Shown: piece by piece, positions 2,621-20,990 of the stretch
How the letters are laid out: each line of letters opens with the position of its first letter
Numbering within the stretch: the stretch's first letter is position 1
IMG/VR virus record: IMGVR_UViG_2939121850_000005
DNA: 20,990 nucleotides
DNA from: a virus
Taxonomy: Duplodnaviria; Heunggongvirae; Uroviricota; Caudoviricetes
Direction: 5' to 3' (one strand)
Position numbers and translations under genes: made by a program
The notes under the pieces: model-generated
Seen by the model: only the letters and a program-made list of their open reading frames with translations
Databases searched by the model: none
What the model was told of the DNA's origin: nothing

Positions 2621-2732
2621 AACTGAAGTTGCCCTGAAAATGAAATTTTTTTGCACAACCGCAGAACTTTTCCGCAGGGCATCAGTCTTAATTAGTGCCA
2701 CTGCTTTTCTTTGATGTCCCCATTTTGTGGAG

Positions 2733-2775
2733 CCCATCAACCCCGCCATTTCGGTTCAAGGTTGATGGGTTTTTT
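2733..2775 (+). terminator. Intrinsic terminator downstream of ybjL
   Basis: 10-bp stem cccatcaacc / ggttgatggg followed by TTTTTT; probably the last host sequence before the prophage junction. Confidence 0.55.
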
Positions 2776-2855
2776 GTTGCCTGAAATTTAAGCTGTTTAA
2801 AATCATGATGTTAGAAAAACTGTTTTTTAACGATGGCGACAAAATGGCGGCGGCG

Positions 2856-3074
2856 TCAAAGAGAGAGCGCCACCTGTCCTGATTTAATTGGATGCGGCTG
2901 AACCGGATTTGACTCTTTTGGCGTTGCAATCGAACGAACAAAAGTTTCATGGGTAACAAAAGTATGGCTGCAGTTAATGTTCTGGCACTGGTTGTAACGC
3001 TCTTTGGTCAATGAAGATACCTGAAAACTGCTGCGAGTATGGGCGGCACTTCCACACAGTGGGCAAATCATCAT
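2856..3074 (-). CDS. ogr: Ogr/Delta-family zinc-finger late-gene activator
   Basis: 72 aa from the MMICPLCGS start (P2 Ogr is 72 aa); Cys pairs CPLC...CQNINC; GGGGAG about 10 nt upstream; lies at the prophage end as in P2. Confidence 0.8.
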   Translation of the reverse strand: MMICPLCGSAAHTRSSFQVSSLTKERYNQCQNINCSHTFVTHETFVRSIATPKESNPVQPHPIKSGQVALSL

Positions 3075-3255
3075 TTTTCGAGTTCTCCCCATTTTTGCTA
3101 AATTCACAATAATGATACCGCATTATTCCATTTTGCAAACTTAAAAGTTCTCCATTGCGAAGAATCATTCCATTTCGAAATCATCAATCCTCACTTCAAG
3201 CTCCAGACTGGTCGTAAAACCGTTATCCGGGCTGACGGTATGCGTCAGAGTCGTA

Positions 3256-4734
3256 ATGGTCCATTCCGCATCATCTAACGAAGCTGACTTAAACCCTAAC
3301 GTCGCCAACCGCAACAAAGGCCCGCGCCGTCAGCCGGAAAAGAATGTCTTCACCGATGAACAGATTGAGAAGCTGGAAGAAATCTTCCATTCCTCCATGT
3401 TCAACTACCAGCGCCACTGGTGGGAAGCCGGAAAAACCAACCGCATCCGCAACCTGCTGAAGTCACGCCAGATCGGCGCGACCTTTTACTTTGCCCGTGA
3501 AGCCCTGATTGACGCCCTGCTTACCGGACGTAACCAGATTTTCCTTTCCGCCAGTAAGGCACAGGCCCACGTCTTTAAGCAGTACATCATCGACTTCGCC
3601 AAAGAAGTGGATGTGGAACTGAAAGGCGATCCGATGGTGCTTCCTAACGGGGCCACGCTTTACTTCCTCGGCACCAATGCCCGCACGGCCCAGAGTTATC
3701 ACGGCAACCTGTATCTGGATGAATATTTCTGGATACCGAAATTTCAGGAGCTACGCAAAGTGGCTTCCGGTATGGCTATTCACAAGAAATGGCGGCAGAC
3801 CTATTTTTCCACACCATCCAGCCTGACCCACAGTGCTTATCCGTTCTGGTCCGGTGCGCTGTTCAACCGTGGACGCAACAAAGCCGACAAGGTGGACATT
3901 GATCTGTCCCACAGCAATCTGGCCCCCGGCCTGCTGTGCGCTGACGGGCAATACCGCCAGATAGTCACCGTGGAAGATGCGGTGCGCGGCGGCTGTAACC
4001 TGTTCGACCTTGACCAGTTGCGCATGGAATACAGCCCGGACGAATACCAGAACCTGCTGATGTGCGAGTTTGTGGACGATCTCGCGTCCGTGTTCCCGCT
4101 CAGCGAACTACAGGCGTGCATGGTGGACAGTTGGGAAGTCTGGACCGACTTTCATGCACTGGCGCTGCGCCCGTTTGGCTGGCGCGAAGTGTGGATCGGT
4201 TATGACCCGGCAAAAGGTACGCAGAACGGCGACAGCGCCGGATGCGTGGTGGTGGCACCGCCAGCCGTGCCGGGCGGTAAGTTCCGCATTCTTGAGCGTC
4301 ACCAGTGGCGCGGGATGGACTTCCGCGCCCAGGCTGACGCCATCAAAAAACTGACTGAACAGTACAACGTGACATACATCGGTATCGACTCAACCGGCGT
4401 CGGTCACGGGGTTTACGAGAACGTGAAAGCGTTTTTTCCTGCCGTCCGGGAGTTTGTCTACAACCCCAACGTTAAAAATGCCCTGGTACTCAAGGCCTAC
4501 GACATTATCAGTCACCGCCGTCTGGAGTTTGACGCCGGACACACCGACATAGCGCAGTCATTTATGGCAATTCGTCGCGCCACCACCGCCAGCGGCAACC
4601 GCCCGACCTATGAAGCCAGCCGCAGCGAAGAAGCCAGCCATGCCGATCTGGCGTGGGCAACAATGCACGCACTGTTTAACGAGCCGCTGCAGGGCGAGTC
4701 CGCCAATACCAGCAATATTGTGGAGATTTTTTGA
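3256..4734 (+). CDS. P: Terminase ATPase subunit (P2 gpP family), possibly N-terminally truncated
   Basis: 492-aa ORF; Walker-A-like KSRQIGATF and Walker-B-like LYLDEYFW, then a nuclease-like C-terminal half; about 100 aa shorter than P2 gpP as I recall it; stop overlaps the Q start. Confidence 0.75.
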   Translation: MVHSASSNEADLNPNVANRNKGPRRQPEKNVFTDEQIEKLEEIFHSSMFNYQRHWWEAGKTNRIRNLLKSRQIGATFYFAREALIDALLTGRNQIFLSASKAQAHVFKQYIIDFAKEVDVELKGDPMVLPNGATLYFLGTNARTAQSYHGNLYLDEYFWIPKFQELRKVASGMAIHKKWRQTYFSTPSSLTHSAYPFWSGALFNRGRNKADKVDIDLSHSNLAPGLLCADGQYRQIVTVEDAVRGGCNLFDLDQLRMEYSPDEYQNLLMCEFVDDLASVFPLSELQACMVDSWEVWTDFHALALRPFGWREVWIGYDPAKGTQNGDSAGCVVVAPPAVPGGKFRILERHQWRGMDFRAQADAIKKLTEQYNVTYIGIDSTGVGHGVYENVKAFFPAVREFVYNPNVKNALVLKAYDIISHRRLEFDAGHTDIAQSFMAIRRATTASGNRPTYEASRSEEASHADLAWATMHALFNEPLQGESANTSNIVEIF

Positions 4735-5762
4735 TGGGAAAGAGTAAGAAGAACCGCGCTGTGTCGACGAACCAGATTCAGCATAAAAGCCAGACTTCAG
4801 CCGAAGCATTCAGCTTTGGCGATCCCGTTCCTGTTCTGGACCGCCGCGAACTGCTGGACTATGTGGAATGCGTACAGACAGATCGCTGGTATGAGCCGCC
4901 AGTGAGTTTTGACGGACTGGCGCGAACCTTCCGCGCTGCCGTGCATCACAGTTCACCAATTGCGGTGAAATGCAACATTCTGACCAGTACCTACATCCCT
5001 CACCCGCTTCTCAGCCAGCAGGCTTTTTCACGTTTTGTGCAGGACTATCTGGTATTTGGTAACGCTTACCTGGAGAAACGCACGAACCGGTTCGGTGAAG
5101 TTATCGCCCTTGAGCCTGCTCTGGCAAAATACACCCGACGTGGGTTAGACCTGGATACCTACTGGTTTGTGCAATACGGTATGACAACCCAGCCGTATCA
5201 GTTCACGAAAGGCAGCATCTTTCATCTGATGGAACCGGATATCAACCAGGAGATCTACGGCCTGCCCGGTTATCTTTCTGCTATTCCGTCAGCCCTGCTC
5301 AACGAGTCCGCCACGTTGTTCCGCCGTAAGTATTACATTAACGGCAGCCATGCAGGCTTCATCATGTATATGACCGATGCCGCGCAAAACCAAGAGGATG
5401 TGAACAACCTCCGCAACGCGATGAAAAGCGCCAAAGGTCCGGGCAACTTCCGCAACCTGTTTATGTACTCGCCTAACGGCAAAAAGGACGGGCTTCAGAT
5501 TATCCCGTTGTCAGAGGTCGCAGCGAAGGATGAGTTTTTGAATATCAAGAACGTGAGCCGGGACGACATGATGGCGGCACACCGCGTGCCGCCGCAAATG
5601 ATGGGGATAATGCCGAATAATGTTGGGGGTTTTGGGGATGTGGAAAAGGCTAGTAAAGTCTTTGTCCGAAATGAATTAATTCCGTTACAAAAAAGGCTTA
5701 TAGAAATTAATACTTGGCTAAATGAAAAAATCATAGCATTTAATGATTACTCATTAAATTAG
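4734..5762 (+). CDS. Q: Portal protein (P2 gpQ family), 3' end recoded by AT-rich DNA
   Basis: ATG at 4734 overlaps the P stop (TGATG) with GGAGA upstream; 342 aa; base composition falls from about 53% to 27% GC near 5640 within the last 40 codons. Confidence 0.75.
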   Translation: MGKSKKNRAVSTNQIQHKSQTSAEAFSFGDPVPVLDRRELLDYVECVQTDRWYEPPVSFDGLARTFRAAVHHSSPIAVKCNILTSTYIPHPLLSQQAFSRFVQDYLVFGNAYLEKRTNRFGEVIALEPALAKYTRRGLDLDTYWFVQYGMTTQPYQFTKGSIFHLMEPDINQEIYGLPGYLSAIPSALLNESATLFRRKYYINGSHAGFIMYMTDAAQNQEDVNNLRNAMKSAKGPGNFRNLFMYSPNGKKDGLQIIPLSEVAAKDEFLNIKNVSRDDMMAAHRVPPQMMGIMPNNVGGFGDVEKASKVFVRNELIPLQKRLIEINTWLNEKIIAFNDYSLN

Positions 5763-5785
5763 ATAAAAAGGGGTTAATCACCCCT
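5763..5785 (-). terminator. Intrinsic terminator for the KAP NTPase gene
   Basis: Hairpin aggggt-taatc-acccct at 5769..5785, followed on the minus strand by TTTTTAT; lies directly between the convergent Q and KAP genes. Confidence 0.5.
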
Positions 5786-5792: not shown

Positions 5793-7445
5793 TCACAAAA
5801 ATCGCCTTACACGCATTTTATTAATCGCAGATTCATCTCCAATTCTTATCAAGGCATCCCTTGCCTTTTTCCCTATACGATTCATTCTATCAGAACCATT
5901 ACTAAAATTTCCGAATTTAAGCGCCGTAGCTATTATTGAATCACCACCATCAAGAATGACATTTTTAAATAATTGATAGTAGTCATCTACTGAAGCAGCA
6001 TCCAATATTTCCTCATGTCTATCAGACCAACCATTCTGACCTGATAATTTCTTAAGAACATCATATATTGAACCATCAATATTTATAATCTTAGAATAGG
6101 CTTGAATTTTTGACAACAACTCAGTATCTCTTACGGGATGAACATTCACATAAATAGATTGAACATATTCCTTTAGAGCATCGTTACCATAATTAATAAA
6201 CTGTTCAATCAATTCACTCGCCTTAGCATTCTCTCCGAAATCCCTATATAGTCCGACAACATTATCTAAATCACTTGGAGTCACATATTTCATCCCATCA
6301 ACCACCGCTTGATATAGCTTGTCAACAACCTGATTTTGATTGTCATCAAATGAATTATGAAAGAACTGCCATGCCTCAGATAAGGATCCTCGTTTATTAT
6401 CACGCGTAATCTCCTCATTCCTTAGGCTTATTTGTCTTTGGAAACTGCTCTTATCAAGATAGCCATATCTAACCATATCAATAAGAACCTCATCAAGATC
6501 ATTCGTTTTTCTATATCCATATTTAAGCAAGGTATTAAGCCAGACTTTCTCATGGCCTTCTTCCTTGTCATTATAAGTATATATATTCCTCACTCCCCTA
6601 ATATATTCTAGTGATGGCACATCTCCCTCTGGAGAAAATCCGTAATGGCTCCAACAATACAGAGTTAATGAATGCGCAACTTCATTTGAAATTGTCTCAA
6701 CATCACCTATAATATTTGGTGTTAAGGACACGAAAAAACGTTCTATCTTTTTTAAGATTCGAATATTCTTGATACCTAAAGAAATGGAATATTTACTTAA
6801 CAAGTTATAAACATGAGAATCACCTTTATAGGCTATATCTGCGCATTCTTCTGGTGTTGGATTGTAAGTGATATCTCTATCAATGACCTTTTCTTTATAA
6901 GTAGAATAATCCTCCATACTAGCTGTGCCATTGTTAAGCAATAGAACCACCTTACAATCCTTCTGCTCTTTTAATAGAGATACTAGCCCTAAAACATCTT
7001 TAACATCTAAATTTTTGCCACGCCTTTCTAAGTCATCTATTACTACAATCATTTTAGAAACGGTCAGAAATGACATTGCTTCAAGTGTCGTAGAGAAGTT
7101 TTTTACAACAGGAACTTCTTTTAACAAACCTGCTGCTTTTCGAGAAAATGATTCAAAAAGTCCACTTGCGTTTGTTGTTGCTGTCTCCAAATCAGGTTTA
7201 TTTCCAATATATTCCTTTGTAATTGCATTCTCAAAAATAGAATACTTTAAAGAATCTAGTGAATTTATACCAAAAAGAGAGACATAACTATATCTATTAA
7301 ATGCAACCTTATCTTTATTATCTTTTAGGAACGTATTCCAAGTATAGGTTTTACCAATTCCCCATTCACCCTGTATAGCCATTACTTCTGGTTCTGTAGA
7401 TGAGATAAAATCTGACAACTGTTCTTTGATAAACTCTAAGGACAT
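5793..7445 (-). CDS. KAP-family P-loop NTPase (candidate defence cargo)
   Basis: 551 aa from the ATG at 7445 (GGAGAA upstream; the six-frame track extends it to 7637); Walker A GEWGIGKT (nt 7347..7370) and KAP-type VVIDDLERR motif; about 33% GC. Confidence 0.7.
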   Translation of the reverse strand: MSLEFIKEQLSDFISSTEPEVMAIQGEWGIGKTYTWNTFLKDNKDKVAFNRYSYVSLFGINSLDSLKYSIFENAITKEYIGNKPDLETATTNASGLFESFSRKAAGLLKEVPVVKNFSTTLEAMSFLTVSKMIVVIDDLERRGKNLDVKDVLGLVSLLKEQKDCKVVLLLNNGTASMEDYSTYKEKVIDRDITYNPTPEECADIAYKGDSHVYNLLSKYSISLGIKNIRILKKIERFFVSLTPNIIGDVETISNEVAHSLTLYCWSHYGFSPEGDVPSLEYIRGVRNIYTYNDKEEGHEKVWLNTLLKYGYRKTNDLDEVLIDMVRYGYLDKSSFQRQISLRNEEITRDNKRGSLSEAWQFFHNSFDDNQNQVVDKLYQAVVDGMKYVTPSDLDNVVGLYRDFGENAKASELIEQFINYGNDALKEYVQSIYVNVHPVRDTELLSKIQAYSKIINIDGSIYDVLKKLSGQNGWSDRHEEILDAASVDDYYQLFKNVILDGGDSIIATALKFGNFSNGSDRMNRIGKKARDALIRIGDESAINKMRVRRFL

Positions 7446-7573
7446 GTGTTTTCTCCTAGAAAGATAGCCCCGTATTATAACCCTAGAATTATAAAAGTAA
7501 TGAGCGCGCGCTCGTATCCCCGCCACGCCTGCCCGCTTTATGTAGTGTTTTTCATGCACCTGCATGACATAGG

Positions 7574-7599
7574 CAAAAGCCCGCCAGTTATGACGGGCC
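7574..7599 (-). terminator. Intrinsic terminator downstream of the 883-aa gene
   Basis: Stem gcccg / cgggc with a 10-nt loop at 7579..7598, followed on the minus strand by CTTTTG. Confidence 0.45.
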
Positions 7600-7735
7600 T
7601 CAGCATAAAAGATCCCTAAACGATCATGCGTTTTCATGCAGCATAGTTATGCAGGACTATCTATACATCGACAATCTCAGCTTGACCTCATCAGTCGACA
7701 TCAATCTATATGTCGAGTAACTTGACAGGAACCAT

Positions 7736-10434: not shown

Positions 10435-10896
10435 ATAATATAGCGTCTGGTAATTTAATAAAAGTCACATGTCAATATCAAAATAAAAAGGCACCTTGAG
10501 ACTAGACCCATAAAAACAAAAAGTCAACATGTTATTTCATACAGTGTGAAAATTAAAGATTTTACAAAACAATAAGTTACAAATCAAACGCGCAATCACA
10601 TGTTGACTGACATCACATATTTAAACTGAAGTAGTAACTTCATTTGCCTTATAGTCTCATGTAACAATTACACTGTTCCTTTAGAGAAGGAACCTTATCT
10701 CTATGAGAACTGTTATATAAACACTTGATGTAAAAAAGCTCAATACCATAGCTACCGCCCATGAGGCTACAGATTGCTGCTTGGGGATATAGAAAGCACA
10801 AATTATAGTAACGATCTGATTCAATAGAGTTCATTTCCATCAAGCTAATCTTCTAGCTTTTATCGATCATTATTTCAATGCACATACAGACTCCCT

Positions 10897-11085
10897 TTAA
10901 CTGGAAACTTCCGTTGACCGGCTGTATTCATGGCTGCGAATTTTCGCCATCAGCTCGTCTGTCAGTTCGGACACCCACTGGATAGCCAGCCGCTTTTCTT
11001 CGTCGCTGCACTCACTAGCCGCTACAAGCTTGATAAAAAAATCAATACGCTGAAGCTTCAATGACTCCAAAAGATAGTCCTGCAT
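10897..11085 (-). CDS. Small hypothetical protein (62 aa) downstream of a LexA box
   Basis: ATG at 11085 preceded by AGGAGG with a 4-nt spacer (MQDYLLESLKLQRIDFF...); identity not recognised. Confidence 0.45.
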   Translation of the reverse strand: MQDYLLESLKLQRIDFFIKLVAASECSDEEKRLAIQWVSELTDELMAKIRSHEYSRSTEVSS

Positions 11086-11133
11086 CTTCCCTCCTATCAT
11101 TACACGGATACACAAAAACTGTATATACACCCA

Positions 11134-11149
11134 CTGTTTATATAAACAG
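11134..11149. promoter_or_regulatory. LexA (SOS) box CTGTTTATATAAACAG
   Basis: Perfect palindromic CTGT-N8-ACAG about 50 nt upstream of the small ORF on the minus strand; TATAAT directly adjacent on the plus strand; a weaker CTGTATATAC half-box lies at 11119. Confidence 0.5.
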
Positions 11150-11243
11150 TATAATAGGAACAGAAAAATGTAAAACTGTTTTTTGTCAGTTAATTGGATG
11201 TACTGATGTCGGTCAATAAAGCACAAAATGTTAAACAGCAGCC

Positions 11244-13637
11244 TTAGTACCATTGACGCCATTTGTCATCTTCCTGCAGCCTCTGGTTACGGTAAAAAAT
11301 ACGTAAACCGGCACCGGATGGAATGCTGCCGCCACGCAGAAGCAAATCAATCTCAGATGCACTACCTTCAAACCCCCTGGTTGTCAGTTCTGCCTCAAGC
11401 TGCAGGCGCTGCTGCTCCAAAATACTCTGTATGTATGCTTTTTTCCGCTTCGGTTTTACCAGTCTCAACCTGGCTGTCAGCTCCCGCCGTTCCTTCTGGC
11501 CCATGTTGTGGAGATATTCCTGCAGCTCCTTCTCATCCATGGTTTTAATATCGGGTAAATCACCCCCTGATTTGTTCAGATTTTCAACAGGGGGACAGTT
11601 ATTGCCACGAGTCCAAGGGGCGCAAGCGCCCTGGTCGGCTGCCGCCTCCTGAACGTCAACGGCTTTACGAACCATTTTCCACTTCACTGCATGAGTGCAG
11701 ATCTTGCCCTCTGCAATGGGTGACCAGATGCCATAAATACGAATGCCATGATCGCCATAGGCGGTCGGCTCTTCGTTGATTTCATAAGCGGTTCTGATGA
11801 GGTGATATTTACGGGGAACCAGTACGCCGCCCTGCTTCATGATGTAGGTGGCAAAACAACCAGCATCAGCAGCAGCCAGAATGGCATCAAGACGCGGGTT
11901 ATCCAGTACCGGCGCACCTGCTTTTTTGTCACCCTGTTGCCTTGCCGCCTGACCAGCCAGCAAGCGAAGTTCACGGTAAGCCTGACGCCCCGGAATACCA
12001 AAGAAGCGGAATTGCTGAACACGATGCAGAGACGCCCAGGCATTCACGTATTCAGCGTTATCACGCAGAGATTTACCCGTTTCCTTGCTGATCTCGCCAG
12101 CCAGACCACGACCGTCAATGTTCTTACTGATATATTTCGCGATGTAGCTTGTCGGCGTTCCTTTGCGCGGGTTAATCAACTCAGACTTAAAGCGCGGCCC
12201 AGTGTTATTGCCCAGCTCCTCGCGGTCTTCACGGATGGCAAACTTACGCAGTAATGCAGTGATGGCACGGCGGTCTTTTTTGCGCATGAAACACAACAGG
12301 TGCCAGTGAACTGTGCCATCATGATGCGGCTCAGCCACCCGCACGCCATACCAGCGCAACCCGGCTTTGTGCATCGCCTTACGAAATGCAGCAAACATAC
12401 CGACCAGATAATCGCTGCTTTGTCTTACCGTCGCGTTTGTCCAGGTCGGGTTTGGTCTGCCGTTATTTAGCGTGGAATGGAAACGCGACGGACAGGTGAT
12501 AGTGTAGAAAACGGCGCAGTCACCGCGCATTTCCGCGATAAGCTCCAGACCTTTAACACAGGCCATCATCTCATTGCGGCGATGCGCAGGGTTGCTGCTG
12601 CTGGCGTTTACCACATCCTCCATGTCCAGCGTGTCGCCGTCTTCGTTCACCAGTTCATGAGAACGGAAAAACTCCAGCGACTTACGACGCTGCTCACGTT
12701 TATGCATCACGGCTTCATAGCTGACATAAGGAGATGCTTTTTTGCTGACCAGGCAAACAGCGCGCAACTGCTCTTCCCGCCATTCGCAACGCATCTTCCA
12801 TAATTTCCGATACCACCAGTCGGCGCACAACATACGCGCCAGCGAACCCGGAATGAGTTCATAGGGCACGGGTTTACGGCGGTTTCTTTTCCGACGGAGT
12901 TGCTCAAACGCAGGTGGGATGACATCCAGACGCAGGGTTTCCGCTGCCACCTTTTCCCATGTCTTGCGGATTTCTTCTGGCTTAACGTCATCGGTGGCAT
13001 ACAAATCACCACAAGCTGCATCAAGGCACATACTCATATGCGCAGCTACCAGGGTGGAAAGGCGTTTCACCTGATCCTGACTCATTTCAGGCAGGATCAG
13101 CAGGCCGTCCAGCCCTTCATGGCTTGCCATAAAGCGAAAAGATGCAGATAGCTGACTGTCGCGTACATGCTCCAGTCGTTCCAGACATGGCTTAATCGTC
13201 TCACGTAAATAGCGGGAATAAGCCTTTGGCCTGCCCAGGCTGCTGAAGTATTCAATACGTTGCATCAGCGGCTTGCTGATATGGGAAGGCTGGGCGTTGA
13301 CGTCCGCCAGAATGACCATGTCTGAATTAAAACGCTGCTGCTCATGCGCCAGCTTTGCCCGGCTAATGAGCTTATCCTGCTCCATTTCGCGCTGGACAGG
13401 ATCACGTGATTCATTAAAGAAATAACGCTCCCAGACCTGATCACTCAGTGCCTCGCGGCGCAACTGTTCCTGCTCGTTATCGGCAGCGTACAGAGTGATC
13501 AGGTTTGAAAGCGTAGAAACCGGCGCAACTTCCGCCGGGTCCAGATAAGGGTTAATGGCCTTTTTCGGGCTGTTCCATGAGAATGCTGCGGCAGCCTCGT
13601 TAAAGCCGCAGCAGTTGTTCATATCGGCATGACTCAT
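11244..13637 (-). CDS. A: Replication initiation endonuclease (P2 gpA family, HUH rolling-circle Rep)
   Basis: 797 aa; HUH motif [10 protein letters not shown] and double-tyrosine motif [13 protein letters not shown]; GGAG RBS; ATGA overlap with the upstream dam stop. Confidence 0.8.
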
Positions 13638-14491
13638 GCACGTACTCCGTACACGGCAGAACTATCCACGCCACGCGAATAATCAAATCCCATCCAGCAG
13701 CGCGGCCCGGAAACAGCAATGATTTCTGTTGCTGATTTACCCTCGCCAGCTGCCACACCGATGCTGCGTTTTACCTTGATATAGTGGTGAGTAAAATTGC
13801 GATACAGCGAACGGATCAGGGATGTGTCACTGTTAGAAACAATGACCGGATGTCCTTCTGATGACCGATGTTCAAGAACGGATGCCAGGTGATACTGGTC
13901 ATCTTCAGTGAAACCATCAGTGTGATAGCCGGAAAACGTACCGTCATATGGCGGATCGCAATACACCACATCTCCCGCCTTCAACATCGCCAGCGTTTCA
14001 TCAAAGCTGGCGCAGATAAACGTCGCTCGCTGGGCTTTTTCTGCAAATGTGCGAAGTTCTTTTTCAGGGAAATACGGATTTTTATAATTACCGTAGGGAA
14101 TGTTGAAATGCCCGCTCTTGTTATAGCGACATAAACCACGGTAACCGTGACGATTGAGATACAGGAAATATACCGCTTTCATGAAATCAGTAATTTCAGT
14201 TGAGCAGTTAAACTCCTGCCTTATGTTGTAATAAGCCACCTCCCTGTTTGCGATCTCAAATAAAACTCTGGCGCGAGATATAAACGATTCACAATCAGCG
14301 GCAACCTTTTTATAGAGGTTGATTAAATCAGGATTAATATCCGCAACCAGATAGCTGGGATAATCCGTTTCCATCATCACAGCACAGGAACCCGCGAAAG
14401 GTTCAACCAGTCGCGGGCCAGCAGGAAGGTATTTTTTCAGTTCTGGCATAATGGCGGTTTTATTTCCCGCCCATTTCAGGATGGTGCTCAT
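13634..14491 (-). CDS. dam: DNA adenine methyltransferase (Dam family)
   Basis: 285 aa from [11 protein letters not shown]; motif I FAGSCAV and catalytic DPPY; GGAGGTG RBS; ATGA overlap with the upstream gene stop. Confidence 0.8.
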
Positions 14492-14715
14492 ACAGCACCT
14501 CCGTTGTAATGTTTGCCTTTCAGTTCTGCGATTTCCTGACAGGTAATGCAAAGCTGCACTCCCGGAATGGCGCGGCGTCGTGCTGGCGGAATTGGCGCTT
14601 CACATTCAATGCAAAGTACGCGTGACACGCCCGGTGATTTGGCACGGGCTGCACGGATATGGCGCTGGCGTTCTTCTTCAACGCGCTGCTGTACGAGATC
14701 CATTGCATCAGCCAT
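14488..14715 (-). CDS. TraR/DksA-family C4 zinc-finger protein
   Basis: 75 aa; CIECEAPIP...CITCQE four-Cys finger, as commonly found in P2-like early operons. Confidence 0.7.
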   Translation of the reverse strand: MADAMDLVQQRVEEERQRHIRAARAKSPGVSRVLCIECEAPIPPARRRAIPGVQLCITCQEIAELKGKHYNGGAV

Positions 14716-14948
14716 TAGTGGATCTCCTGCGCTTCGTTCTGGATTGCTTCAGCAGTCACGCGCAGCAGTTCTGCCGCTTCCACGTGGTTTAGCTGGCGGG
14801 ATGAGATATGACACGCCAGGCTATCAAGGCGAGCAGCCATTGCTTCAGCCCTTGCCCGGCGTTCTTCCAGACGAGCCTCTGTCAGTAAAATATTAAGCCC
14901 TGCGTCATCCGGTCCGGTTTTAGTCGTGAGGGTTTCAATATTACGCAT
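14715..14948 (-). CDS. Hypothetical phage early protein
   Basis: 77 aa from the ATG at 14948 with AGGAG upstream (the track's TTG at 14954 is less likely); Ala/Arg/Glu-rich helical protein. Confidence 0.5.
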   Translation of the reverse strand: MRNIETLTTKTGPDDAGLNILLTEARLEERRARAEAMAARLDSLACHISSRQLNHVEAAELLRVTAEAIQNEAQEIH

Positions 14949-15015
14949 AATCAATTCTCCTGAATTTAGATAAAGGGATGCCCGGCGGGTTTACGCCATT
15001 AATTTCATTAGTTGG

Positions 15016-15357
15016 TTAATTCGGCATGGTTAGCCGTCTGGGAAATAAGCTCACCACTGCACGAAAATGATTCATTGCTTTAATCAGCTCCCGCTTTTCG
15101 TCAGTGGTCAGCTCATTAATGCTGATGCTATGACGTTCAGCTGGAATTTTTGCCATAAAGAATATGGCAGCCAGTGCCCGTTTATTTTGTTCATTATTGA
15201 TATCCCGTGGATCACGCATATCTTTAATAAACCGCTCAAGCTCTGACTCAATATTCAGGCCAAAAACTTTCGCCCTTAACTCCGCAATGTGATTAAGTCC
15301 ATTCAGGCGTTCACCGGGGCTTAATGGAACAGTTGCTGCAGCGCCATTAATTGCCAT
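15016..15357 (-). CDS. Hypothetical phage early protein
   Basis: 113-aa ORF with GGGGGA upstream; protein-like composition in the same early operon. Confidence 0.5.
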   Translation of the reverse strand: MAINGAAATVPLSPGERLNGLNHIAELRAKVFGLNIESELERFIKDMRDPRDINNEQNKRALAAIFFMAKIPAERHSISINELTTDEKRELIKAMNHFRAVVSLFPRRLTMPN

Positions 15358-15379
15358 ACTTCATATCCCCCAAACGCAG

Positions 15380-15604
15380 CTATCGTTCTTTGTTCTTACG
15401 GTAACGCTCAAGAGGAGATACATTTTTTCGTATCGTCTCTTTAACCTGCTCTCCCCGTAAAAACGTCCCATCCTTTAACGTGAAAAAGTAACTGCCATCG
15501 CCCGACAATGACGGATAGCAACAGAGCAAATCATCTTCAGGTACTGAATAACTCTCCCCTCTGTAACGAAACTGATAAACCACTTCACTTTCTGCCGCAT
15601 ACAT
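15380..15604 (-). CDS. Hypothetical small protein (overlaps the next ORF out of frame)
   Basis: 74-aa ORF with GGAGA upstream of its ATG; globular-looking composition. Confidence 0.35.
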   Translation of the reverse strand: MYAAESEVVYQFRYRGESYSVPEDDLLCCYPSLSGDGSYFFTLKDGTFLRGEQVKETIRKNVSPLERYRKNKER

Positions 15605-15771
15605 TTGGACTTTCTCCGTTTCCTCGTGGTCAATTCAGACAGCAATTCATCTTGTGAATGACATGGATGCCAGCGTTTTCCATCCTCACCCGTGATCCAG
15701 CCGTGACCGTAGTGCATTGCCGGGCTTTGTTTTACCAGCAGCGATGCAAATGATGGTTCTTTCGTCAGCAT
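15475..15771 (-). CDS. Hypothetical small protein, translationally coupled to the CII-like gene
   Basis: ATG at 15771 with GAGGTG 3 nt upstream, overlapping the CII-like stop; the first 50 aa look protein-like, the C-terminal half is basic and low-complexity (possible frameshifted remnant). Confidence 0.4.
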   Translation of the reverse strand: MLTKEPSFASLLVKQSPAMHYGHGWITGEDGKRWHPCHSQDELLSELTTRKRRKSKCMRQKVKWFISFVTEGRVIQYLKMICSVAIRHCRAMAVTFSR

Positions 15772-15778
15772 AAACACC

Positions 15779-16288
15779 TCACAGCAAACCGAATGAAGCA
15801 CCAAGGCCAGTCATGGTATCAACTGCACTCGCCATCGCAGGATTAGCCTGTAAACGGGCTTGCAATGAAACAGCAGCCAGCGCCATCAGTCGTGTTACAG
15901 AGTTAATGCTGCTGATAGCATCACGACGACCTGCACTGGTTTTTACATCGCCAGATACCGCACCTGCAGCAACACGCCCGATCTCTGCGGTTGCACTCAT
16001 GACGTAATGCGGTAGTTTCTCTTTTGCCACCTCATTAATCGGAACACATGGCAGACAATGAATCTGTGCCAGAAAACCATCTACCAGCGTTGAATCTTCA
16101 GTCAGATCGGTAAGCAACCAAATTTCTGGTGCGGTTAATAAATGAGGTTGAGCTGGGTTCAGTTTGTTCCGCAGAATCTGCACATTCATGCCTGCACGTT
16201 CTGCCAGTTGCACCAGATTGTGGCGCAGTGCGAATGCACGACAGGCTTCATCAAAATGTGGATGTTTGGAAACTTGGTAATCAAACAT
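15779..16288 (-). CDS. CII-like HTH transcriptional regulator (186 CII-like by position and size)
   Basis: 169 aa from MFDYQ with GAGGTG RBS; HTH-like [16 protein letters not shown]; directly downstream of the Apl/Cox-like gene. Confidence 0.55.
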
Positions 16289-16320
16289 GGTCGACACCTC
16301 TGATGTATCCCAAAATGGAA

Positions 16321-16542
16321 CTAGTTGAATACAACATTGCAATCAGTAAGTGCATCAACGGTAAGAGCAGCAAGGTTGATCATTACCTTTTCTCTTTTCT
16401 TGTCTTTCCGAAGGCGATGCCGAGGGATGCGACCGTCAGCCAGCATATCGTTAATTGTGTCGATTGAAAGACCAGTAAGTTCGCTATAACGCTCAATTGT
16501 GACATGTGGCGTATTCAGGGTTATTGAAATGTTAGGGGTCAT
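16321..16542 (-). CDS. Apl/Cox-like excisionase-type small DNA-binding regulator
   Basis: 73 aa; HTH-like [26 protein letters not shown]; first gene of the lytic-direction operon, divergent from the CI-like gene; AGGAG upstream. Confidence 0.5.
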
Positions 16543-16630
16543 GATGCAACATCTCCTATTGGCTTGTGGTGAGTCAGTTTTAATCGTGGCTTTAACTTCA
16601 CATTTCGGAGAATAGGATCACAAATCGGTT
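16543..16630. promoter_or_regulatory. Immunity switch region (divergent promoter/operator space)
   Basis: 88-bp gap between the divergent Apl-like and CI-like genes; contains 7-bp inverted repeats TCCTATT / AATAGGA about 50 bp apart. Confidence 0.4.
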
Positions 16631-17566
16631 ATGTCAACACATGAAATCACATTTCGCCATGTGGACGAAAAAAAGAAATCCTTAATCATGCAGAATCGCG
16701 GAGGGCAATCGGTTATAGATCGGATACTGAAAGCCTATGGTTTTTCTTCCCGACAAGCATTCTGTAATCACCTAGGTATATCGCAAAGTACAATGGCGAA
16801 CAGGTATGCCCGTGACACTTTCCCTGCTGATTGGGTTGTTATCTGTAGCATGGAGACTGGAGTGCCGGTCGAGTGGTTGGCATTTGGCACTGATACCGAG
16901 AAGGGAAGCATTACAAATAATGCAGAAAAAAGTCACAACAATTGTGACAGCAAGCATCAACATCTCAATAGAGAACAAGACATCCAAAATGAGAACTCTT
17001 TTACTATTAACCAAGGTGGAAAAGCAGCAATAGAGCGAATCGTTTTGGCTTATGGATTTAAGACAAGACAAGCTTTAGCTGATCATATTGGTGTATCAAA
17101 AAGTACATTAGCCAATCGTTACATGAGAGATACCTTTCCTGCTGACTGGATTATTCAATGCTCACTGGAAACCGGTGCTTCATTAACATGGCTAACCACT
17201 GGTAACGGGGCAATGTTTGAAAAGCCTCGAAACGATACTATCACTATCCCATATCATAAAATAATTGATGGATCTCTTGCTCAAGAAACCTTCTTGACTT
17301 TTGACTCTAAGTTGTTAGAAGGAACCTTTCTGCAACCTTTAGCAGTATTCATTGATGAGGAAATATATATTGTAGAATCAAAATTTAATGAAGTTACTGA
17401 TGGCAAGTGGCTTGTGAATATTGAAGGGAAAATAAGTATCAAAGATTTGACTCGCATACCCGTTGGTATGGTTAAAGTTGTAGGCACTAACGCAAGTTTT
17501 GAATGCTTACTTACTGACATTATCGTTTTGGCAAAATGTAAAAGAGTTTTTACTAAAAATGTATAA
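16631..17566 (+). CDS. CI-like repressor with tandemly duplicated HTH domain (186 CI-type)
   Basis: 311 aa; two about 64-aa repeats (aa 24-87 and 129-192, about 60% identical) each with an HTH-like core (ILKAYGFSSRQAFCNHLGISQSTMANRY / IVLAYGFKTRQALADHIGVSKSTLANRY); about 37% GC; start codon uncertain (no clear SD). Confidence 0.6.
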   Translation: MSTHEITFRHVDEKKKSLIMQNRGGQSVIDRILKAYGFSSRQAFCNHLGISQSTMANRYARDTFPADWVVICSMETGVPVEWLAFGTDTEKGSITNNAEKSHNNCDSKHQHLNREQDIQNENSFTINQGGKAAIERIVLAYGFKTRQALADHIGVSKSTLANRYMRDTFPADWIIQCSLETGASLTWLTTGNGAMFEKPRNDTITIPYHKIIDGSLAQETFLTFDSKLLEGTFLQPLAVFIDEEIYIVESKFNEVTDGKWLVNIEGKISIKDLTRIPVGMVKVVGTNASFECLLTDIIVLAKCKRVFTKNV

Positions 17567-17577: not shown

Positions 17578-18522
17578 ATGACTGAACCAACCAATAAAGA
17601 TAGCGAAATAAAAAAACACCTATTAGAATTTCTTGATTCACAGTCTGAAAATATAGCAAAACACTTCTACTCTCATATAAAAGACTTAATAGAAGCAGGA
17701 GAGCTTTCTGAAGCTCATAATAACCTAGCGCTAATTGAAAAATACATAACTAGGCCACCGATGGATGAAGAACCCAATATAAATGAAAATAAAGCCAATA
17801 AAAGAAAAAATGTAAAATCACTTGAACCTAATAATTATGTAGAACATATAATACAATTAGAAGAACGAAACAGCATATTAACTCTACAGTTAGAGCATTA
17901 TACTCAGGATCTTAATAGAAAAAACGCAATAATCGAAAACAACGTAAAACAAATTAATTCATTGATTAGTGAAAATAAGGAACTCCGTAGCCAAGTACAG
18001 CAACAAAGAATCGATGATAAAATCCCCACCTATGTTAACGATGTTAAATCAGATCTTGGTAGTGATGACAAACATTTTATATTGATGTCTATTATCTGGT
18101 CTATTGCAGGGGTATTTTTTGGCTTCCTTGCAGTAGTATCTGCTTTTTTTACATTATACATGAACTTAGATTTAAAAAATCTCACTAACCTTCAGTTAAT
18201 ATATATCTTCACGCGAGGATTAGTTGGAATCGCCATTCTTTCATGGCTATCATATATCTGCCTTAGTAACTCAAAAAAGTACACACATGAATCGATCAGG
18301 CGAAAAGATCGTCGACATGCTTTGATGTTTGGTCAAGTTTTTTTGCAGATATACGGTTCTACAGCAACTAAAGAGGATGCAATAGAAGTCTTTAAGGATT
18401 GGAATATTTCAGGTGACTCTGCATTTTCAGGTCAGACAGAGCAACCACCGAGTTTTGCGTCATTTTTGAATACAATCAAAGACAAAGTTAAAGTAACTGG
18501 AAGTGATAAAGAAACAGATTAA
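17578..18522 (+). CDS. Coiled-coil / two-TM membrane protein of unknown function (candidate exclusion or abortive-infection moron)
   Basis: 314 aa starting 11 nt after the CI-like stop; charged coiled-coil N-terminal half and two hydrophobic helices (FILMSIIWSIAGVFFGFLAVVSAFF, GLVGIAILSWLSYICL); strongly AT-rich. Confidence 0.6.
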   Translation: MTEPTNKDSEIKKHLLEFLDSQSENIAKHFYSHIKDLIEAGELSEAHNNLALIEKYITRPPMDEEPNINENKANKRKNVKSLEPNNYVEHIIQLEERNSILTLQLEHYTQDLNRKNAIIENNVKQINSLISENKELRSQVQQQRIDDKIPTYVNDVKSDLGSDDKHFILMSIIWSIAGVFFGFLAVVSAFFTLYMNLDLKNLTNLQLIYIFTRGLVGIAILSWLSYICLSNSKKYTHESIRRKDRRHALMFGQVFLQIYGSTATKEDAIEVFKDWNISGDSAFSGQTEQPPSFASFLNTIKDKVKVTGSDKETD

Positions 18523-18567: not shown

Positions 18568-18575
18568 TGTTATAT
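18568..18575. repeat. 8-bp target-site duplication TGTTATAT (left copy)
   Basis: Identical octamer immediately flanks both IS ends. Confidence 0.6.
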
Positions 18576-19891
18576 GGGTCTTCCCTTGTTGTGGTGGCTG
18601 AAGGCATGATAATGGTGTATTTAATCGCCAGAGGTCACCGCCATGGACGAAAAGTCCCTCTACGCTCATATTCTCAACCTGTCCGATCCGTGGCAGGTAA
18701 AGTCCCTTTCTCTCGATGAAAATGCCGGTTCTGTTACTGTCACTATTGAGATCGCTGAAAACACCCGGCTAGCCTGTCCGACCTGCGGTAAATCCTGTTC
18801 TGTTCACGATCACCGTCATCGTAAATGGCGCCATCTTGATACCTGCCAGTTCACCACTATTGTTGAAGCCGATGTTCCACGAATTATGTGTCCGGAGCAT
18901 GGCTGCCTGACGTTGCCTGTTCCGTGGGCTGGCCCCGGAAGCCGGTATACGTTGCTATTCGAATCGTTCGTTCTCTCATGGCTGAAAATCAGCACCGTTG
19001 ATGCTGTCAGGAAGCAACTTAAGCTCAGTTGGAATGCGGTTGACGGCATTATGACCCGGGCAGTTAAGCGAGGTCTTGCCCGGATAAAAAAGCCATTATC
19101 CGCCCGTCATATGAATGTGGATGAGGTCGCCTTTAAAAAAGGACATCGTTACATAACGGTGATCTCCGATCGCGATGGTCGGGCGCTGGCCTTAACGGAT
19201 GATCGCGGCACAGAGAGTCTTGCCGGCTATCTTCGCACGCTCACTGATGGGCAGTTGCTGGCTATCAAAACGCTCTCAATGGACATGAACGCGGGCTATA
19301 TAAGAGCAGCGCGTATCTACTTACCCAGTGCGGTTGAGAAAATCGCCTTTGACCGCTTCCATGTGGCGAAGCAACTGGGCGAGGTAGTTGATAAAACCCG
19401 TCAGAATGAACATCCGCACCTCCCTGTTGAAAGCCGACACCAGGCAAAAGGAACCCGCTTCCTGTGGCAGTACAGCGATAAGTGGATGACCGAATCCCGG
19501 CAGGAAAAGCTGATGTGGCTGCGTGCACAGATGAAGCTGACGAGCCAGTGCTGGGCGCTGAAAGAGCTGGCAAAGGATATCTGGAACAGGCCATGGAGCG
19601 AGGAAAGACGGAGTGACTGGCAGAGATGGTTGGCGCTGGCGGCTAACAGTGACGTTCCCATGATGAAAAATGCCGCGAAAACGATAGGAAAAAGGCTGTA
19701 CGGGATCCTGAATGCGATGCGACACAGTGTCTCAAACGGAAATGCGGAGGCACTTAACAGCAAGATCAGGCTGCTGAGGATAAAAGCCAGGGGATACCGA
19801 AACCGGGAGCGCTTTAAACTGGGGGTGATGTTCCACTACGGAAAGCTGAATATGGCGTTCTGAGCCTTCCCACCATGATCGGGGAAGACCC
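18576..19891 (+). mobile_element. ISL3-family insertion sequence (1316 bp)
   Basis: Imperfect terminal inverted repeats beginning GGGTCTTCCC at both ends (left 18576..18604; right 19864..19891, reverse complement); one transposase ORF; flanked by an 8-bp direct repeat. Confidence 0.75.
18643..19863 (+). CDS. ISL3-family transposase
   Basis: 406 aa; N-terminal Cys/His zinc-finger (CPTCGKSC...CPEHGC), DDE-type core, C-terminal SNGNAEALNSKIRLLRIKARGYRNRERF typical of ISL3 transposases; GAGGT RBS. Confidence 0.75.
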   Translation: MDEKSLYAHILNLSDPWQVKSLSLDENAGSVTVTIEIAENTRLACPTCGKSCSVHDHRHRKWRHLDTCQFTTIVEADVPRIMCPEHGCLTLPVPWAGPGSRYTLLFESFVLSWLKISTVDAVRKQLKLSWNAVDGIMTRAVKRGLARIKKPLSARHMNVDEVAFKKGHRYITVISDRDGRALALTDDRGTESLAGYLRTLTDGQLLAIKTLSMDMNAGYIRAARIYLPSAVEKIAFDRFHVAKQLGEVVDKTRQNEHPHLPVESRHQAKGTRFLWQYSDKWMTESRQEKLMWLRAQMKLTSQCWALKELAKDIWNRPWSEERRSDWQRWLALAANSDVPMMKNAAKTIGKRLYGILNAMRHSVSNGNAEALNSKIRLLRIKARGYRNRERFKLGVMFHYGKLNMAF

Positions 19892-19899
19892 TGTTATAT
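19892..19899. repeat. 8-bp target-site duplication TGTTATAT (right copy)
   Basis: Identical to 18568..18575, directly abutting the right IS end. Confidence 0.6.
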
Positions 19900-19937: not shown

Positions 19938-20990
19938 ATGGCAGTACGAAAACTCACCACAGGAAAATGGCTTTGCGAATGTTACCCCGCCGGACGTAGC
20001 GGACGCCGTGTGCGTAAACAATTCGCCACCAAAGGCGAAGCACTGGCCTTCGAGCGATACACCATGGGGGAAATAGAAGCAAAACCCTGGCTGGGCGAAT
20101 CAGTGGATCGTCGGACACTGAAAGATATGGTTGAGCTATGGTTCAAATTACATGGCAAATCTCTTACTGCCGGACAGCATGTCTACAACAAGCTGCTGTT
20201 GATGGTTGACGCCTTGGGAAATCCCCTTGCAACTGATCTCACCTCAAAAATGTTTGCTCACTATCGAGATAAACGCCTGACAGGCGAGATCTACTTCAGC
20301 GAGAAATGGAAGAAAGGAGCAAGCCCGGTCACCATTAACCTGGAGCAAAGCTATCTAAGTAGTGTTTTTAGCGAACTATCCCGTCTGGGCGAATGGTCGT
20401 ATCCGAACCCACTGGAGAACATGCGAAAATTCACCATCGCAGAAAAAGAGATGGCATGGCTTACCCATGAGCAGATTGTTGAATTGCTGGCTGATTGCAA
20501 ACGTCAGGACCCAATTCTGGCACTGGTAGTTAAGATATGCTTAAGCACAGGCGCACGCTGGCGTGAAGCCGTAAATCTTACCCGCTCACAGGTGACCAAA
20601 TACCGAATTACCTTTGTCAGAACGAAGGGGAAGAAAAACAGAAGCATCCCTATCAGTAAAGAGCTTTACGAAGAGATCATGGCGCTCGATGGGTTCAATT
20701 TCTTCACAGACTGCTATTTTCAATTTTTATCCGTGATGGAAAAAACGTCTATCGTGCTCCCTCGCGGTCAACTCACACACGTTCTGCGCCATACGTTTGC
20801 AGCGCACTTCATGATGTCGGGTGGAAACATTCTGGCCTTACAAAAAATTCTCGGACACCACGATATAAAAATGACTATGCGTTACGCACATCTGGCACCG
20901 GATCATCTGGAAACGGCGCTCCGTTTCAATCCTCTGGCAACGCTGCCAAGTGGCGACAAAGTGGCGGCAGCGGTTGGCATTACCCCGTAA
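19938..20990 (+). CDS. int: Tyrosine integrase (P2 Int family)
   Basis: 350 aa from MAVRKLTTGKW (second in-frame ATG, GAGGG upstream); catalytic region with R...HxxR...Y (ARWREA, HVLRHTFA, RYAHL); stop is the last codon of the window. Confidence 0.85.
   Translation: MAVRKLTTGKWLCECYPAGRSGRRVRKQFATKGEALAFERYTMGEIEAKPWLGESVDRRTLKDMVELWFKLHGKSLTAGQHVYNKLLLMVDALGNPLATDLTSKMFAHYRDKRLTGEIYFSEKWKKGASPVTINLEQSYLSSVFSELSRLGEWSYPNPLENMRKFTIAEKEMAWLTHEQIVELLADCKRQDPILALVVKICLSTGARWREAVNLTRSQVTKYRITFVRTKGKKNRSIPISKELYEEIMALDGFNFFTDCYFQFLSVMEKTSIVLPRGQLTHVLRHTFAAHFMMSGGNILALQKILGHHDIKMTMRYAHLAPDHLETALRFNPLATLPSGDKVAAAVGITP

What the first reader, a model, noticed from the sequence alone, without database searches (positions are those of the whole stretch)
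2776..5762. Prophage is a remnant: ogr lies about 180 bp from terminase gene P, with all capsid, tail and lysis genes missing
In P2-like genomes P and ogr are separated by roughly 25 kb of structural and lysis genes. Here the ogr start (3074) and the P start (3256) are adjacent, and P is about 100 aa shorter than I recall for P2 gpP. The element therefore cannot form particles, yet it keeps intact-looking regulatory, replication and integration modules plus cargo, which suggests selection on the cargo rather than on the phage.
Basis: partly seen in the sequence, partly recalled or inferred. Interest (0 to 1): 0.45.

Follow-up and report, generated by a model that had tools for sequence, protein, structure and literature searches.

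The report
Defective P2-like prophage with internal deletion
This is a P2/186-type prophage of E. coli that lost about 17.5 kb of head, tail and lysis genes in one clean deletion; it is inherited in the ST410 lineage, is already flagged as pseudogenes in RefSeq, and is an ordinary cryptic prophage.

Summary
Compared with the complete Klebsiella phage 4LV2017, window 2665-3280 is the attR/ogr/3'-end-of-D end. Window 3277-5751 is terminase gene P from codon 88 onward, plus portal gene Q. About 17.5 kb is missing in between: P codons 1-87, O, N, M, L, X, the lysis genes, all tail genes and 90% of D. The joint lies at 3277/3278 with 1 nt of microhomology, which points to illegitimate recombination.

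The '492-aa P' is a chimeric ORF: 7 codons read antisense through the D stub, fused to gpP residues 88-572. It lacks the Terminase_5 domain and its late promoter.

The element is bounded by att repeats between ybjL and rcdA, so no structural genes are hidden elsewhere in it. The identical joint is present in 106 of 5,426 complete E. coli genomes, including the ST410 strains AMA1167 and YD786. PGAP already marks D and P as incomplete.

Related prophages at the same site carry two other, independent deletions, and one of those removed the cargo. Remnant copies are near-identical, so 'selection on cargo' cannot be told from recent clonal descent.

The remnant keeps int, cox/apl, CI, A, cos and ogr, so helper-dependent mobilisation is not excluded. 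Nothing found here supports it.

Verdict: correct but ordinary.

The parts
2765..2790 (.). attR core (ATGGGTTTTTTGTTGCCTGAAATTTA). It overlaps the 3' arm and T-run of the ybjL terminator.
   Evidence: A 26-nt direct repeat has its partner at L002 38666-38691, equivalent to window 21065-21090 and just outside the window. The spacing is 18,300 bp. Host-only genomes match the window only up to 2778 or 2790. The terminator hairpin folds at -24.1 kcal/mol, z = -3.4.
2856..3074 (-). ogr, the late-gene activator (72 aa), intact.
   Evidence: Pfam Ogr_Delta E=6.8e-22. PGAP calls it an 'ogr/Delta-like zinc finger family protein'.
3112..3139 (-). Sigma-70-like promoter candidate for ogr (TTTGCA-16-TATCAT).
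   Evidence: Consensus scan only. This is weak evidence.
3165..3277 (-). 3' stub of tail gene D: the last 36 codons plus the stop.
   Evidence: It translates to ...DDAEWTITTLTHTVSPDNGFTTSLELEVRIDDFEME*, matching the C-terminus of 4LV2017 gpD. PGAP: 'late control protein D, incomplete, missing N-terminus'.
3277..3278 (.). Deletion joint. The D-derived sequence ends at CATCATCTA and the P-derived sequence begins at (A)ACGAAGC. One nt of microhomology is shared.
   Evidence: Alignments against three D references and the P reference. blastn coordinates.
3256..4734 (+). Truncated large-terminase gene P. It is a chimeric ORF: 7 codons read antisense through the D stub, then gpP residues 88-572. The ATPase and nuclease domains are kept. 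The N-terminal Terminase_5 domain and the late promoter are lost.
   Evidence: PGAP marks it 'incomplete; missing N-terminus'. No promoter-like site on the + strand upstream.
4734..5762 (+). Portal gene Q, intact. Its start overlaps the P stop codon.
   Evidence: Pfam Phage_portal. TIGR01540, 369 bits. 94.7% DNA identity to 4LV2017.
5793..7445 (-). Cargo 1: KAP-family P-loop NTPase. It is annotated as reaching 7637, but the real start is probably at 7445.
   Evidence: Pfam KAP_NTPase. PADLOC candidate PDC-S49, E=7e-28. phrog_4740 matches full length from the internal Met. An AGGAG sits upstream of 7445.
7503..7652 (-). cos region. The equivalent of the 19-nt cohesive end is at 7511-7529 (GGCGTGGCGGGGATACGAG on the - strand).
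   Evidence: It aligns across the joined right and left ends of phage 186, whose cos is annotated. This 150-bp block is the only part of the hotspot conserved across more than 1,100 E. coli genomes and 43 phage records.
7736..10387 (-). Cargo 2: 883-aa protein with an HsdR_N nuclease-like domain, a P-loop and a C-terminal S1 domain.
   Evidence: Pfam. phrog_14719. Only weak P-loop hits in PADLOC.
10765..17566 (.). Early, replication and immunity module collinear with 4LV2017: gpA 11244-13637 (-), Dam methylase, DksA-like protein, cII 15779-16288 (-), Cox/Apl 16321-16542 (-), CI 16631-17566 (+).
   Evidence: 90.8% DNA identity over 6.4 kb. Pfam and PHROG matches. No pseudogene flags.
17578..18522 (+). 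Cargo 3: 314-aa coiled-coil/membrane protein between CI and int.
   Evidence: phrog_2628 matches full length, function unknown. No Pfam or PADLOC hit.
18576..19891 (+). ISKox3 (ISL3 family), 1,316 bp, with an 8-bp target duplication TGTTATAT at 18568-18575 and 19892-19899. It lies about 46 bp upstream of the int start.
   Evidence: Compared with the empty site in FCI54. Pfam DDE_Tnp_ISL3. Present at this site in only 6 complete genomes. Most remnant copies lack it.
19938..20990 (+). Integrase (tyrosine recombinase). Its stop codon is at the window end.
   Evidence: 94.5% DNA identity to 4LV2017 int. PGAP: 'phage integrase'.

Best explanation
A P2/186-like (Peduoviridae) temperate phage of about 34.5 kb integrated at the attB that overlaps the ybjL terminator, between ybjL and rcdA, in an ancestor of the E. 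coli ST410 lineage. One illegitimate-recombination event with 1 nt of microhomology then joined a point 36 codons before the end of tail gene D to codon 88 of terminase gene P. This removed about 17.5 kb: the divergent P/O late-promoter region and every scaffold, capsid, small-terminase, lysis and tail gene.

The result is a non-particle-forming cryptic prophage of about 17.0 kb, or 18.3 kb in this window's variant, which gained an ISKox3 upstream of int. It has been inherited vertically.

Shown here: the breakpoints, the truncations, the element's boundaries, the clonal distribution, and the later secondary lesions.

Inferred:
- The truncated P and the Q gene are silent leftovers. They survive only because the deletion happened to end there.
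- CI keeps the early operon repressed.
- The cos-proximal and CI-int cargo genes may still be expressed and may give some phage resistance. Their retention so far needs no explanation beyond the short time since the deletion.
For: - Two-block collinearity with a complete phage, and the exact joint.
- P ORF residues 8-492 equal gpP residues 88-572. The Terminase_5 domain (aa 1-52 of intact gpP) is lost.
- D stub.
- att repeats and flanking host genes ybjL and rcdA.
- Identical joint in 106 of 5,426 complete genomes, all listed rows at 100% identity. These include AMA1167 and YD786, which PMC6052333 names as ST410.
- Two remnant copies from Chengdu and Bogota share the same flanking host protein alleles, apart from nfsA.
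- PGAP independently calls D and P 'incomplete'.
- Later lesions are nested within the set: ISKox3 in 6 genomes, IS2 in the KAP gene in 1, and frameshifts in 1.
- Two independent deletions with different breakpoints occur in related prophages at the same site. Loss of the late region is therefore recurrent and haphazard.
- The cargo lies in the known cos-proximal gpA-gpQ hotspot of P2-like phages (PMC9122126).
Against: - No intact progenitor with this cargo was found in 5,426 E. coli genomes or 50,697 phage records. I therefore cannot show that the deletion happened in situ rather than before acquisition.
- Silence of the truncated P and of Q is inferred only from loss of the promoter region and a weak consensus scan.
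- ST410 membership was checked in the literature for only two of the strains.
Confidence: 0.9

Rival explanations
1. Domestication. After the deletion the remnant has been kept by selection for its cargo (KAP NTPase, HsdR_N/P-loop/S1 protein, 314-aa membrane protein, CI-mediated immunity), which protects the host against other phages.
For: - The cargo sits in the defence hotspot next to cos described for P2-like phages (PMC9122126).
- The KAP protein matches a PADLOC defence candidate, PDC-S49.
- Cargo ORFs are intact in almost all copies.
- A 2026 preprint reports defective P2-like elements with conserved defence genes (10.64898/2026.02.27.708500).
Against: - Copies are near-identical and clonal, so intactness carries no information about selection.
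- IS2 disrupts the KAP gene in strain W137.
- An independent remnant at the same site lost the whole hotspot.
- None of the three cargo proteins matches a validated defence system.
Confidence: 0.25
2. Helper-dependent mobile element ('hitcher'). The remnant keeps int, cox/apl, CI, gpA with its origin, cos and ogr. It might therefore still excise, replicate and be packaged by a superinfecting P2/186-like helper, behaving like a nascent satellite.
For: - All of these functions appear intact.
- cos is conserved with phage 186.
- The IS-free element is 16,976 bp, so a dimer (33.95 kb) is close to the roughly 34.5-kb progenitor size (arithmetic).
- Defective prophages of O157 Sakai are reported in the abstract of PMC2669165 to take part in prophage-prophage interactions that aid transfer.
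Against: - It is found only at one chromosomal site, and where flanks were compared the host alleles match.
- The joint is absent from IMG/VR viral contigs, JGI metagenome contigs and the GTDB representative genomes.
- No second closely related P/Q or ogr copy is present in the remnant genomes listed (places_in_record = 1).
- It has no capsid-size or helper-derepression genes of the P4 kind.
- In this window ISKox3 separates int from the CI operon.
Confidence: 0.07
3. Assembly or annotation artefact. The ogr-P adjacency would come from a collapsed or mis-joined assembly.
For: None found.
Against: The identical joint is present in 106 independently sequenced complete genomes from many laboratories and countries. 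Both flanks are collinear with host genes.
Confidence: 0.01

Closest known systems
E. coli K-12 cryptic prophage PR-X (ogrK + yegZ)
   Same: It is a P2-type remnant at an att site that keeps an intact 72-aa ogr gene followed by a 3' fragment of tail gene D. In K-12 the yegZ pseudogene is 219 nt. The attR-end architecture matches window 2856-3277.
   Different: PR-X is only 629 bp and everything else is gone. The window's element still has about 17 kb: truncated P, Q, cos, cargo, A, the immunity genes and int. It also lies at a different chromosomal site (ybjL-rcdA, not cyaR-yegR).
Klebsiella phage 4LV2017 (Peduoviridae, Elveevirus; NC_047818), a complete relative
   Same: It has the same gene order, with 91-96% DNA identity over ogr, D-end, P, Q, the A-to-CI region and int. 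Its cos block is homologous and it also carries cargo on both sides of cos.
   Different: 4LV2017 carries the full O-to-D morphogenesis and lysis block (17.5 kb) and a full-length 572-aa gpP. Its hotspot holds a retron instead of the KAP NTPase and the 883-aa protein.
Defective P2-like prophages retaining hotspot defence genes (Rousset et al. 2022, PMC9122126; bioRxiv 10.64898/2026.02.27.708500)
   Same: The cargo lies in the cos-proximal gpA-gpQ hotspot. Core mobility and structural genes are pseudogenised or lost while neighbouring accessory genes remain intact.
   Different: Those papers describe the class statistically. This specific ST410 remnant, its breakpoints and its cargo were not found described in the papers read here. 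The cargo has no validated defence function.
Satellite phage P4
   Same: It is a small integrative element with int, its own replication, a P2-type cos and an Ogr/Delta-family activator, and it has no structural genes.
   Different: The window's element has no P4 alpha primase, Sid, Psu or Epsilon. Its replication protein is P2-type gpA (PF05840). Every gene is collinear with a P2-like phage at more than 90% DNA identity, so it is a deleted phage and not a member of the P4 family.

Membership tests
P2/186-like (Peduoviridae) prophage | Gene order and sequence collinear with a complete family member: int-CI-cox/apl-cII-...-A-cos-Q-P ... D-ogr. | tested here: met
   blastn against 4LV2017 gives blocks at 91-96% identity covering ogr/D-end, P/Q, A-to-CI and int, in the expected order and orientation. 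Pfam and PHROG matches to Ogr_Delta, Terminase_6N/6C, Phage_portal, Phage_GPA, Phage_CI_repr, Cox-like and CII-like.
P2/186-like (Peduoviridae) prophage | Flanking att direct repeats, with int at one end and ogr at the other. | tested here: met
   A 26-nt repeat 18,300 bp apart, next to ybjL/ogr on one side and int/rcdA on the other.
P2/186-like (Peduoviridae) prophage | P2-type cos site between Q and the A-side accessory region. | tested here: met
   Window 7480-7680 (reverse complement) aligns across the joined right and left ends of phage 186. The first 13 of the 19 cohesive-end bases are identical. The exact P2 cos 19-mer is not present.
P2/186-like (Peduoviridae) prophage | Complete morphogenesis and lysis gene set (O N M L X, lysis, R S V W J I H G, FI FII E T U D) and full-length P. 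| tested here: not met
   Phage positions 15407-32924 are absent. P lacks residues 1-87, including Terminase_5. D is reduced to 36 codons. The element is therefore a defective derivative, not a functional phage.
Cryptic (defective) prophage | Essential phage functions lost through deletion or pseudogenisation, while the element remains integrated and vertically inherited. | tested here: met
   The identical joint is in 106 complete genomes, including ST410 strains. PGAP pseudogene flags. Later IS insertions are nested within the set.
Domesticated prophage (cargo under purifying selection) | Evidence of selection on retained genes after inactivation: dN/dS below 1, or parallel retention across independent remnants. 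| tested here: inconclusive
   Nearly all cargo-bearing copies are at least 99% identical, so there is no variation to analyse. Of two independent remnants at the same site, one keeps a hotspot with different cargo and one lost it entirely.
P4-like satellite | P4 core genes: alpha primase/helicase, sid, psu, epsilon and delta. | tested here: not met
   Replication uses P2-type gpA. No P4 core function appeared among the Pfam, PHROG or PGAP assignments for the element's genes. The backbone is collinear with a P2-like phage. Only cos and an Ogr/Delta-family gene are shared.

The most novel reading that the evidence does not exclude
The roughly 17-kb remnant might not be dead. It keeps int, cox/apl, CI, gpA with its origin, a 186-type cos and ogr, and is almost exactly half the progenitor's length. 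It could be a phage caught in transition to a satellite-like 'hitcher'. On this reading it would excise, replicate and be packaged (for example as a dimer) by a superinfecting P2-like helper, spreading its three uncharacterised cargo genes through the ST410 high-risk clone and beyond.
Probability: 0.06. Interest if true: 0.6.

Novelty: new member of a known kind. Interest (0 to 1): 0.15.

Why it matters
Its significance is modest.
- It gives exact breakpoints for a lineage-specific cryptic prophage found in at least part of E. coli ST410, a lineage described as an international high-risk clone (PMC6052333). That makes it a usable clonal marker.
- With two independent deletions at the same att site and K-12's PR-X, it illustrates how P2-like prophages repeatedly lose the late region.
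- The three intact accessory genes next to cos and int are uncharacterised phage-hotspot genes and are reasonable candidates for defence screening.
- It opens no long-standing question. A specialist would not be surprised.

Tried and rejected
- The exact P2 cos 19-mer with up to 3 mismatches gave no match. cos was then located through the block conserved with 4LV2017 and confirmed against the ends of phage 186.
- An exact-match search for the deletion joint found nothing in GTDB representative genomes, IMG/VR viral contigs or JGI metagenome contigs. There is thus no sign of the joint outside the E. coli lineage, and none in viromes.
- Searches for an intact progenitor carrying the same cargo, in complete E. 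coli genomes and in the phage collection, found none. Outside the remnant genomes, almost nothing but the 150-bp cos block recurs; one genome also has an 80%-identical KAP gene beside cos.
- Local blastn of loci L003-L005 failed because their files never appeared in the sandbox. Targeted alignments replaced it.
- I looked for a new promoter at the joint that might drive the truncated P and Q. No + strand sigma-70-like site lies upstream of 3256, and the ybjL terminator lies upstream.
- PADLOC and NCBIfam gave no validated defence system for the cargo. The only hits were the candidate PDC-S49 and generic P-loop or S1 matches.
- An SOS-inducible Tum/DinI-type antirepressor is present in phage 186 and in the 2017.11.01CC remnant. 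No gene annotated as such is present in this element.
Full report
**1. What is in the sequence**

The window starts in E. coli chromosomal DNA, with ybjL at 935-2620 (+) (Pfam Asp-Al_Ex/TrkA_C; PGAP 'ybjL'). ybjL ends in a strong terminator hairpin.

The 3' arm and T-run of that hairpin overlap a 26-nt att core at 2765-2790. A second copy of the core lies 18,300 bp downstream. That is 75-100 bp beyond the window end, just before rcdA.

Between the two cores, in order:
- ogr, 2856-3074 (-)
- a 36-codon stub of tail gene D, 3165-3277 (-)
- a 5'-truncated terminase gene P, to 4734 (+)
- portal gene Q, 4734-5762 (+)
- a KAP-family NTPase gene (-)
- a cos site
- an 883-aa HsdR_N/P-loop/S1 gene (-)
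- the P2-type early region: gpA, Dam, a DksA-like gene, cII and cox/apl, all (-)
- CI (+)
- a 314-aa membrane protein gene (+)
- an ISKox3 copy
- int (+)

These assignments rest.

**2. The deletion**

blastn against the complete Klebsiella phage 4LV2017 (33,540 bp, Peduoviridae) gives two abutting blocks:
- Window 2665-3280 equals phage 33540->32925: attR, ogr and the last ~116 nt of D, at 95.9% identity.
- Window 3277-5751 equals phage 15406->12932: P from nucleotide 262 onward, plus Q, at 94.7% identity.

Phage positions 15407-32924 (17,518 bp) are missing. This block holds:
- the first 87 codons of P and the divergent P/O promoter region
- O, N, M, L and X
- holin, endolysin and spanin
- R, S, V, W, J, I, H and the tail-fibre assembly gene
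- FI, FII, E, E', T and U
- about 90% of D

Alignment with three independent D references and the P reference places the joint at 3277/3278. The D-derived sequence ends ...CATCATCTA and the P-derived sequence begins (A)ACGAAGC. Only one base of microhomology is shared. This is the signature of illegitimate recombination, not of a site-specific or homology-driven event.

**3. The '492-aa P'**

The ORF at 3256-4734 starts at an ATG that lies in the antisense of the D stub. Its residues 8-492 align to residues 88-572 of the 572-aa gpP of 4LV2017 with 481/485 identities. The phage 186 homologue is 590 codons.

Intact gpP has an N-terminal Terminase_5 domain at residues 1-52 (PF06056). That domain is wholly lost here. 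The ATPase and nuclease domains remain.

The late promoter of the P-Q operon lay in the deleted P/O intergenic region. No sigma-70-like site lies upstream on the + strand, and the ybjL terminator insulates the region. I infer that the truncated P and Q are silent leftovers. This is inference only and was not shown.

**4. Is anything hidden outside the window?**

No. In the complete genome of strain WCHEC020031 the element is bounded by ybjL and rcdA. PGAP marks D and the terminase as 'incomplete; missing N-terminus' and flags nothing else in the element.

**5. Distribution**

The joint with its flanks (window 2400-4200) is present at full coverage in 106 of 5,426 complete E. coli genomes. All listed rows are 100% identical, with one copy per genome.

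The listed strains include AMA1167 and YD786. Roer et al. name both as sequence type 410 (PMC6052333). Copies from Chengdu and Bogota share the same flanking host protein alleles, apart from nfsA.

The cargo block occurs in 108 genomes, and every context I inspected (three genomes) was the remnant. No intact progenitor with this cargo was found in the E. coli set or among 50,697 phage records. The joint is absent from the GTDB representatives, IMG/VR and the JGI metagenome contigs.

Secondary lesions are nested within the set:
- ISKox3 (18576-19891, with the 8-bp duplication TGTTATAT) is present in only 6 genomes and absent from most copies.
- IS2 splits the KAP gene in strain W137.
- Strain FCI54 shows frameshifts in gpA and in the 883-aa gene. 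These may be sequencing errors.

The order of events is therefore integration, then deletion, then sporadic further decay.

**6. Recurrence**

Related prophages at the same ybjL-rcdA site carry two other deletions with different breakpoints:
- In strain 2017.11.01CC, 756 nt of D are joined to the last 276 nt of P. Q and a different cargo are retained.
- In strain AH21, 309 nt of D are joined to the middle of gpA. P, Q, cos and the whole hotspot are lost, and an IS5-family element has removed the immunity region.

K-12's cryptic prophage PR-X is ogrK plus a 219-nt fragment of D.

Loss of the late block is thus recurrent and haphazard. All of the ybjL-site cases were found through ogr/D similarity. 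The apparent 'ogr is always kept' pattern is therefore an ascertainment effect and I draw nothing from it.

**7. What the remnant can still do**

cos is retained. Window 7480-7680 (reverse complement) aligns across the joined right and left ends of phage 186, with GGCGTGGCGGGGATACGAG against the 186 sequence GGCGTGGCGGGGAAAGCAT. This 150-bp block is the only part of the hotspot conserved in more than 1,100 other E. coli genomes.

With int, cox/apl, CI, gpA and ogr also apparently intact, excision, replication and helper-dependent packaging are formally possible. The IS-free element is 16,976 bp, about half of the roughly 34.5-kb progenitor.

Nothing observed supports actual mobility:
- It occupies one site, with matching flanks where I compared them.
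- It has no virome or metagenome hits.
- The listed remnant genomes hold no second closely related P2-like copy.

In this window's variant ISKox3 separates int from the CI operon. No gene annotated as a Tum/DinI-type antirepressor is present in the element. Phage 186 and the 2017.11.01CC remnant both have one. Mitomycin C induction is therefore not expected to work well.

**8. The cargo and the 'selection' claim**

The cargo lies in the cos-proximal gpA-gpQ hotspot that Rousset et al. showed to hold anti-phage systems in P2-like phages (PMC9122126). A further gene lies in the CI-int gap.

What the searches found for the cargo:
- The KAP NTPase matches the untested PADLOC candidate PDC-S49.
- All three proteins fall in PHROG families of unknown function.
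- None matches a validated defence system.

A 2026 preprint already reports defective P2-like elements whose mobility genes are pseudogenised while neighbouring defence genes stay intact. It leaves open whether this reflects domestication (10.64898/2026.02.27.708500).

For this element the copies are near-identical, so intactness says nothing about selection. W137 and AH21 show that the cargo can be lost.

**9. Verdict**

The element is a defective P2/186-like prophage of the ST410 lineage, of a well-known kind, and RefSeq already flags its truncated genes. Interest is low. The only reading that would raise it, a functional helper-dependent element, has no positive evidence.

Noticed in passing
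window 5793-7637 (-) and 7503-7652: The 614-aa ORF, as listed and as annotated by PGAP, runs across the cos region. The KAP and PHROG matches begin at an internal Met at 7445, which is preceded by AGGAG. The real gene is therefore probably 5793-7445 (550 aa), and the RefSeq start looks over-extended.
   Followed up: partly
window 5793-10387 and 17578-18522: There are three uncharacterised accessory genes in known P2 variable spots. They are a KAP NTPase (PADLOC candidate PDC-S49, phrog_4740), an 883-aa HsdR_N + P-loop + S1 protein (phrog_14719) on the other side of cos, and a 314-aa coiled-coil/membrane protein (phrog_2628) between CI and int. None matches a validated defence system. At DNA level the block occurs in full only in the 108 remnant genomes.
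   Followed up: partly
window 18568-19899: ISKox3 (ISL3 family, 1,316 bp, 8-bp duplication TGTTATAT) lies about 46 bp upstream of int and is present in only 6 complete genomes. ISL3-family elements also sit next to related integrase genes in other genomes (CFSAN064035 with ISKox3, ZY22049 with ISEc53). This hints at an insertion hot spot upstream of P2-like int genes.
   Followed up: partly
window 2731-2790: The att core overlaps the 3' arm and T-run of the ybjL intrinsic terminator (-24.1 kcal/mol, z = -3.4). The prophage end therefore rebuilds the terminator of the host gene.
   Followed up: partly
L004 20001-33400 and L005 20001-26400: Two further defective P2-like prophages occupy the same ybjL-rcdA site in other E. 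coli strains (2017.11.01CC and AH21). Their internal deletions are independent. Each starts inside D and ends in P or in gpA.
   Followed up: yes
window 3277-4734 vs L001 13949-15406: P is 94.7% identical to the Klebsiella phage at DNA level but 99% identical at protein level. Nearly all differences are therefore synonymous. This reflects strong purifying selection on the terminase while the phage was still active, before the deletion.
   Followed up: no
window 5768-5785: A GC-rich hairpin flanked by A/T runs sits in the 30-bp gap between the convergent Q and KAP genes. It looks like a bidirectional terminator.
   Followed up: no
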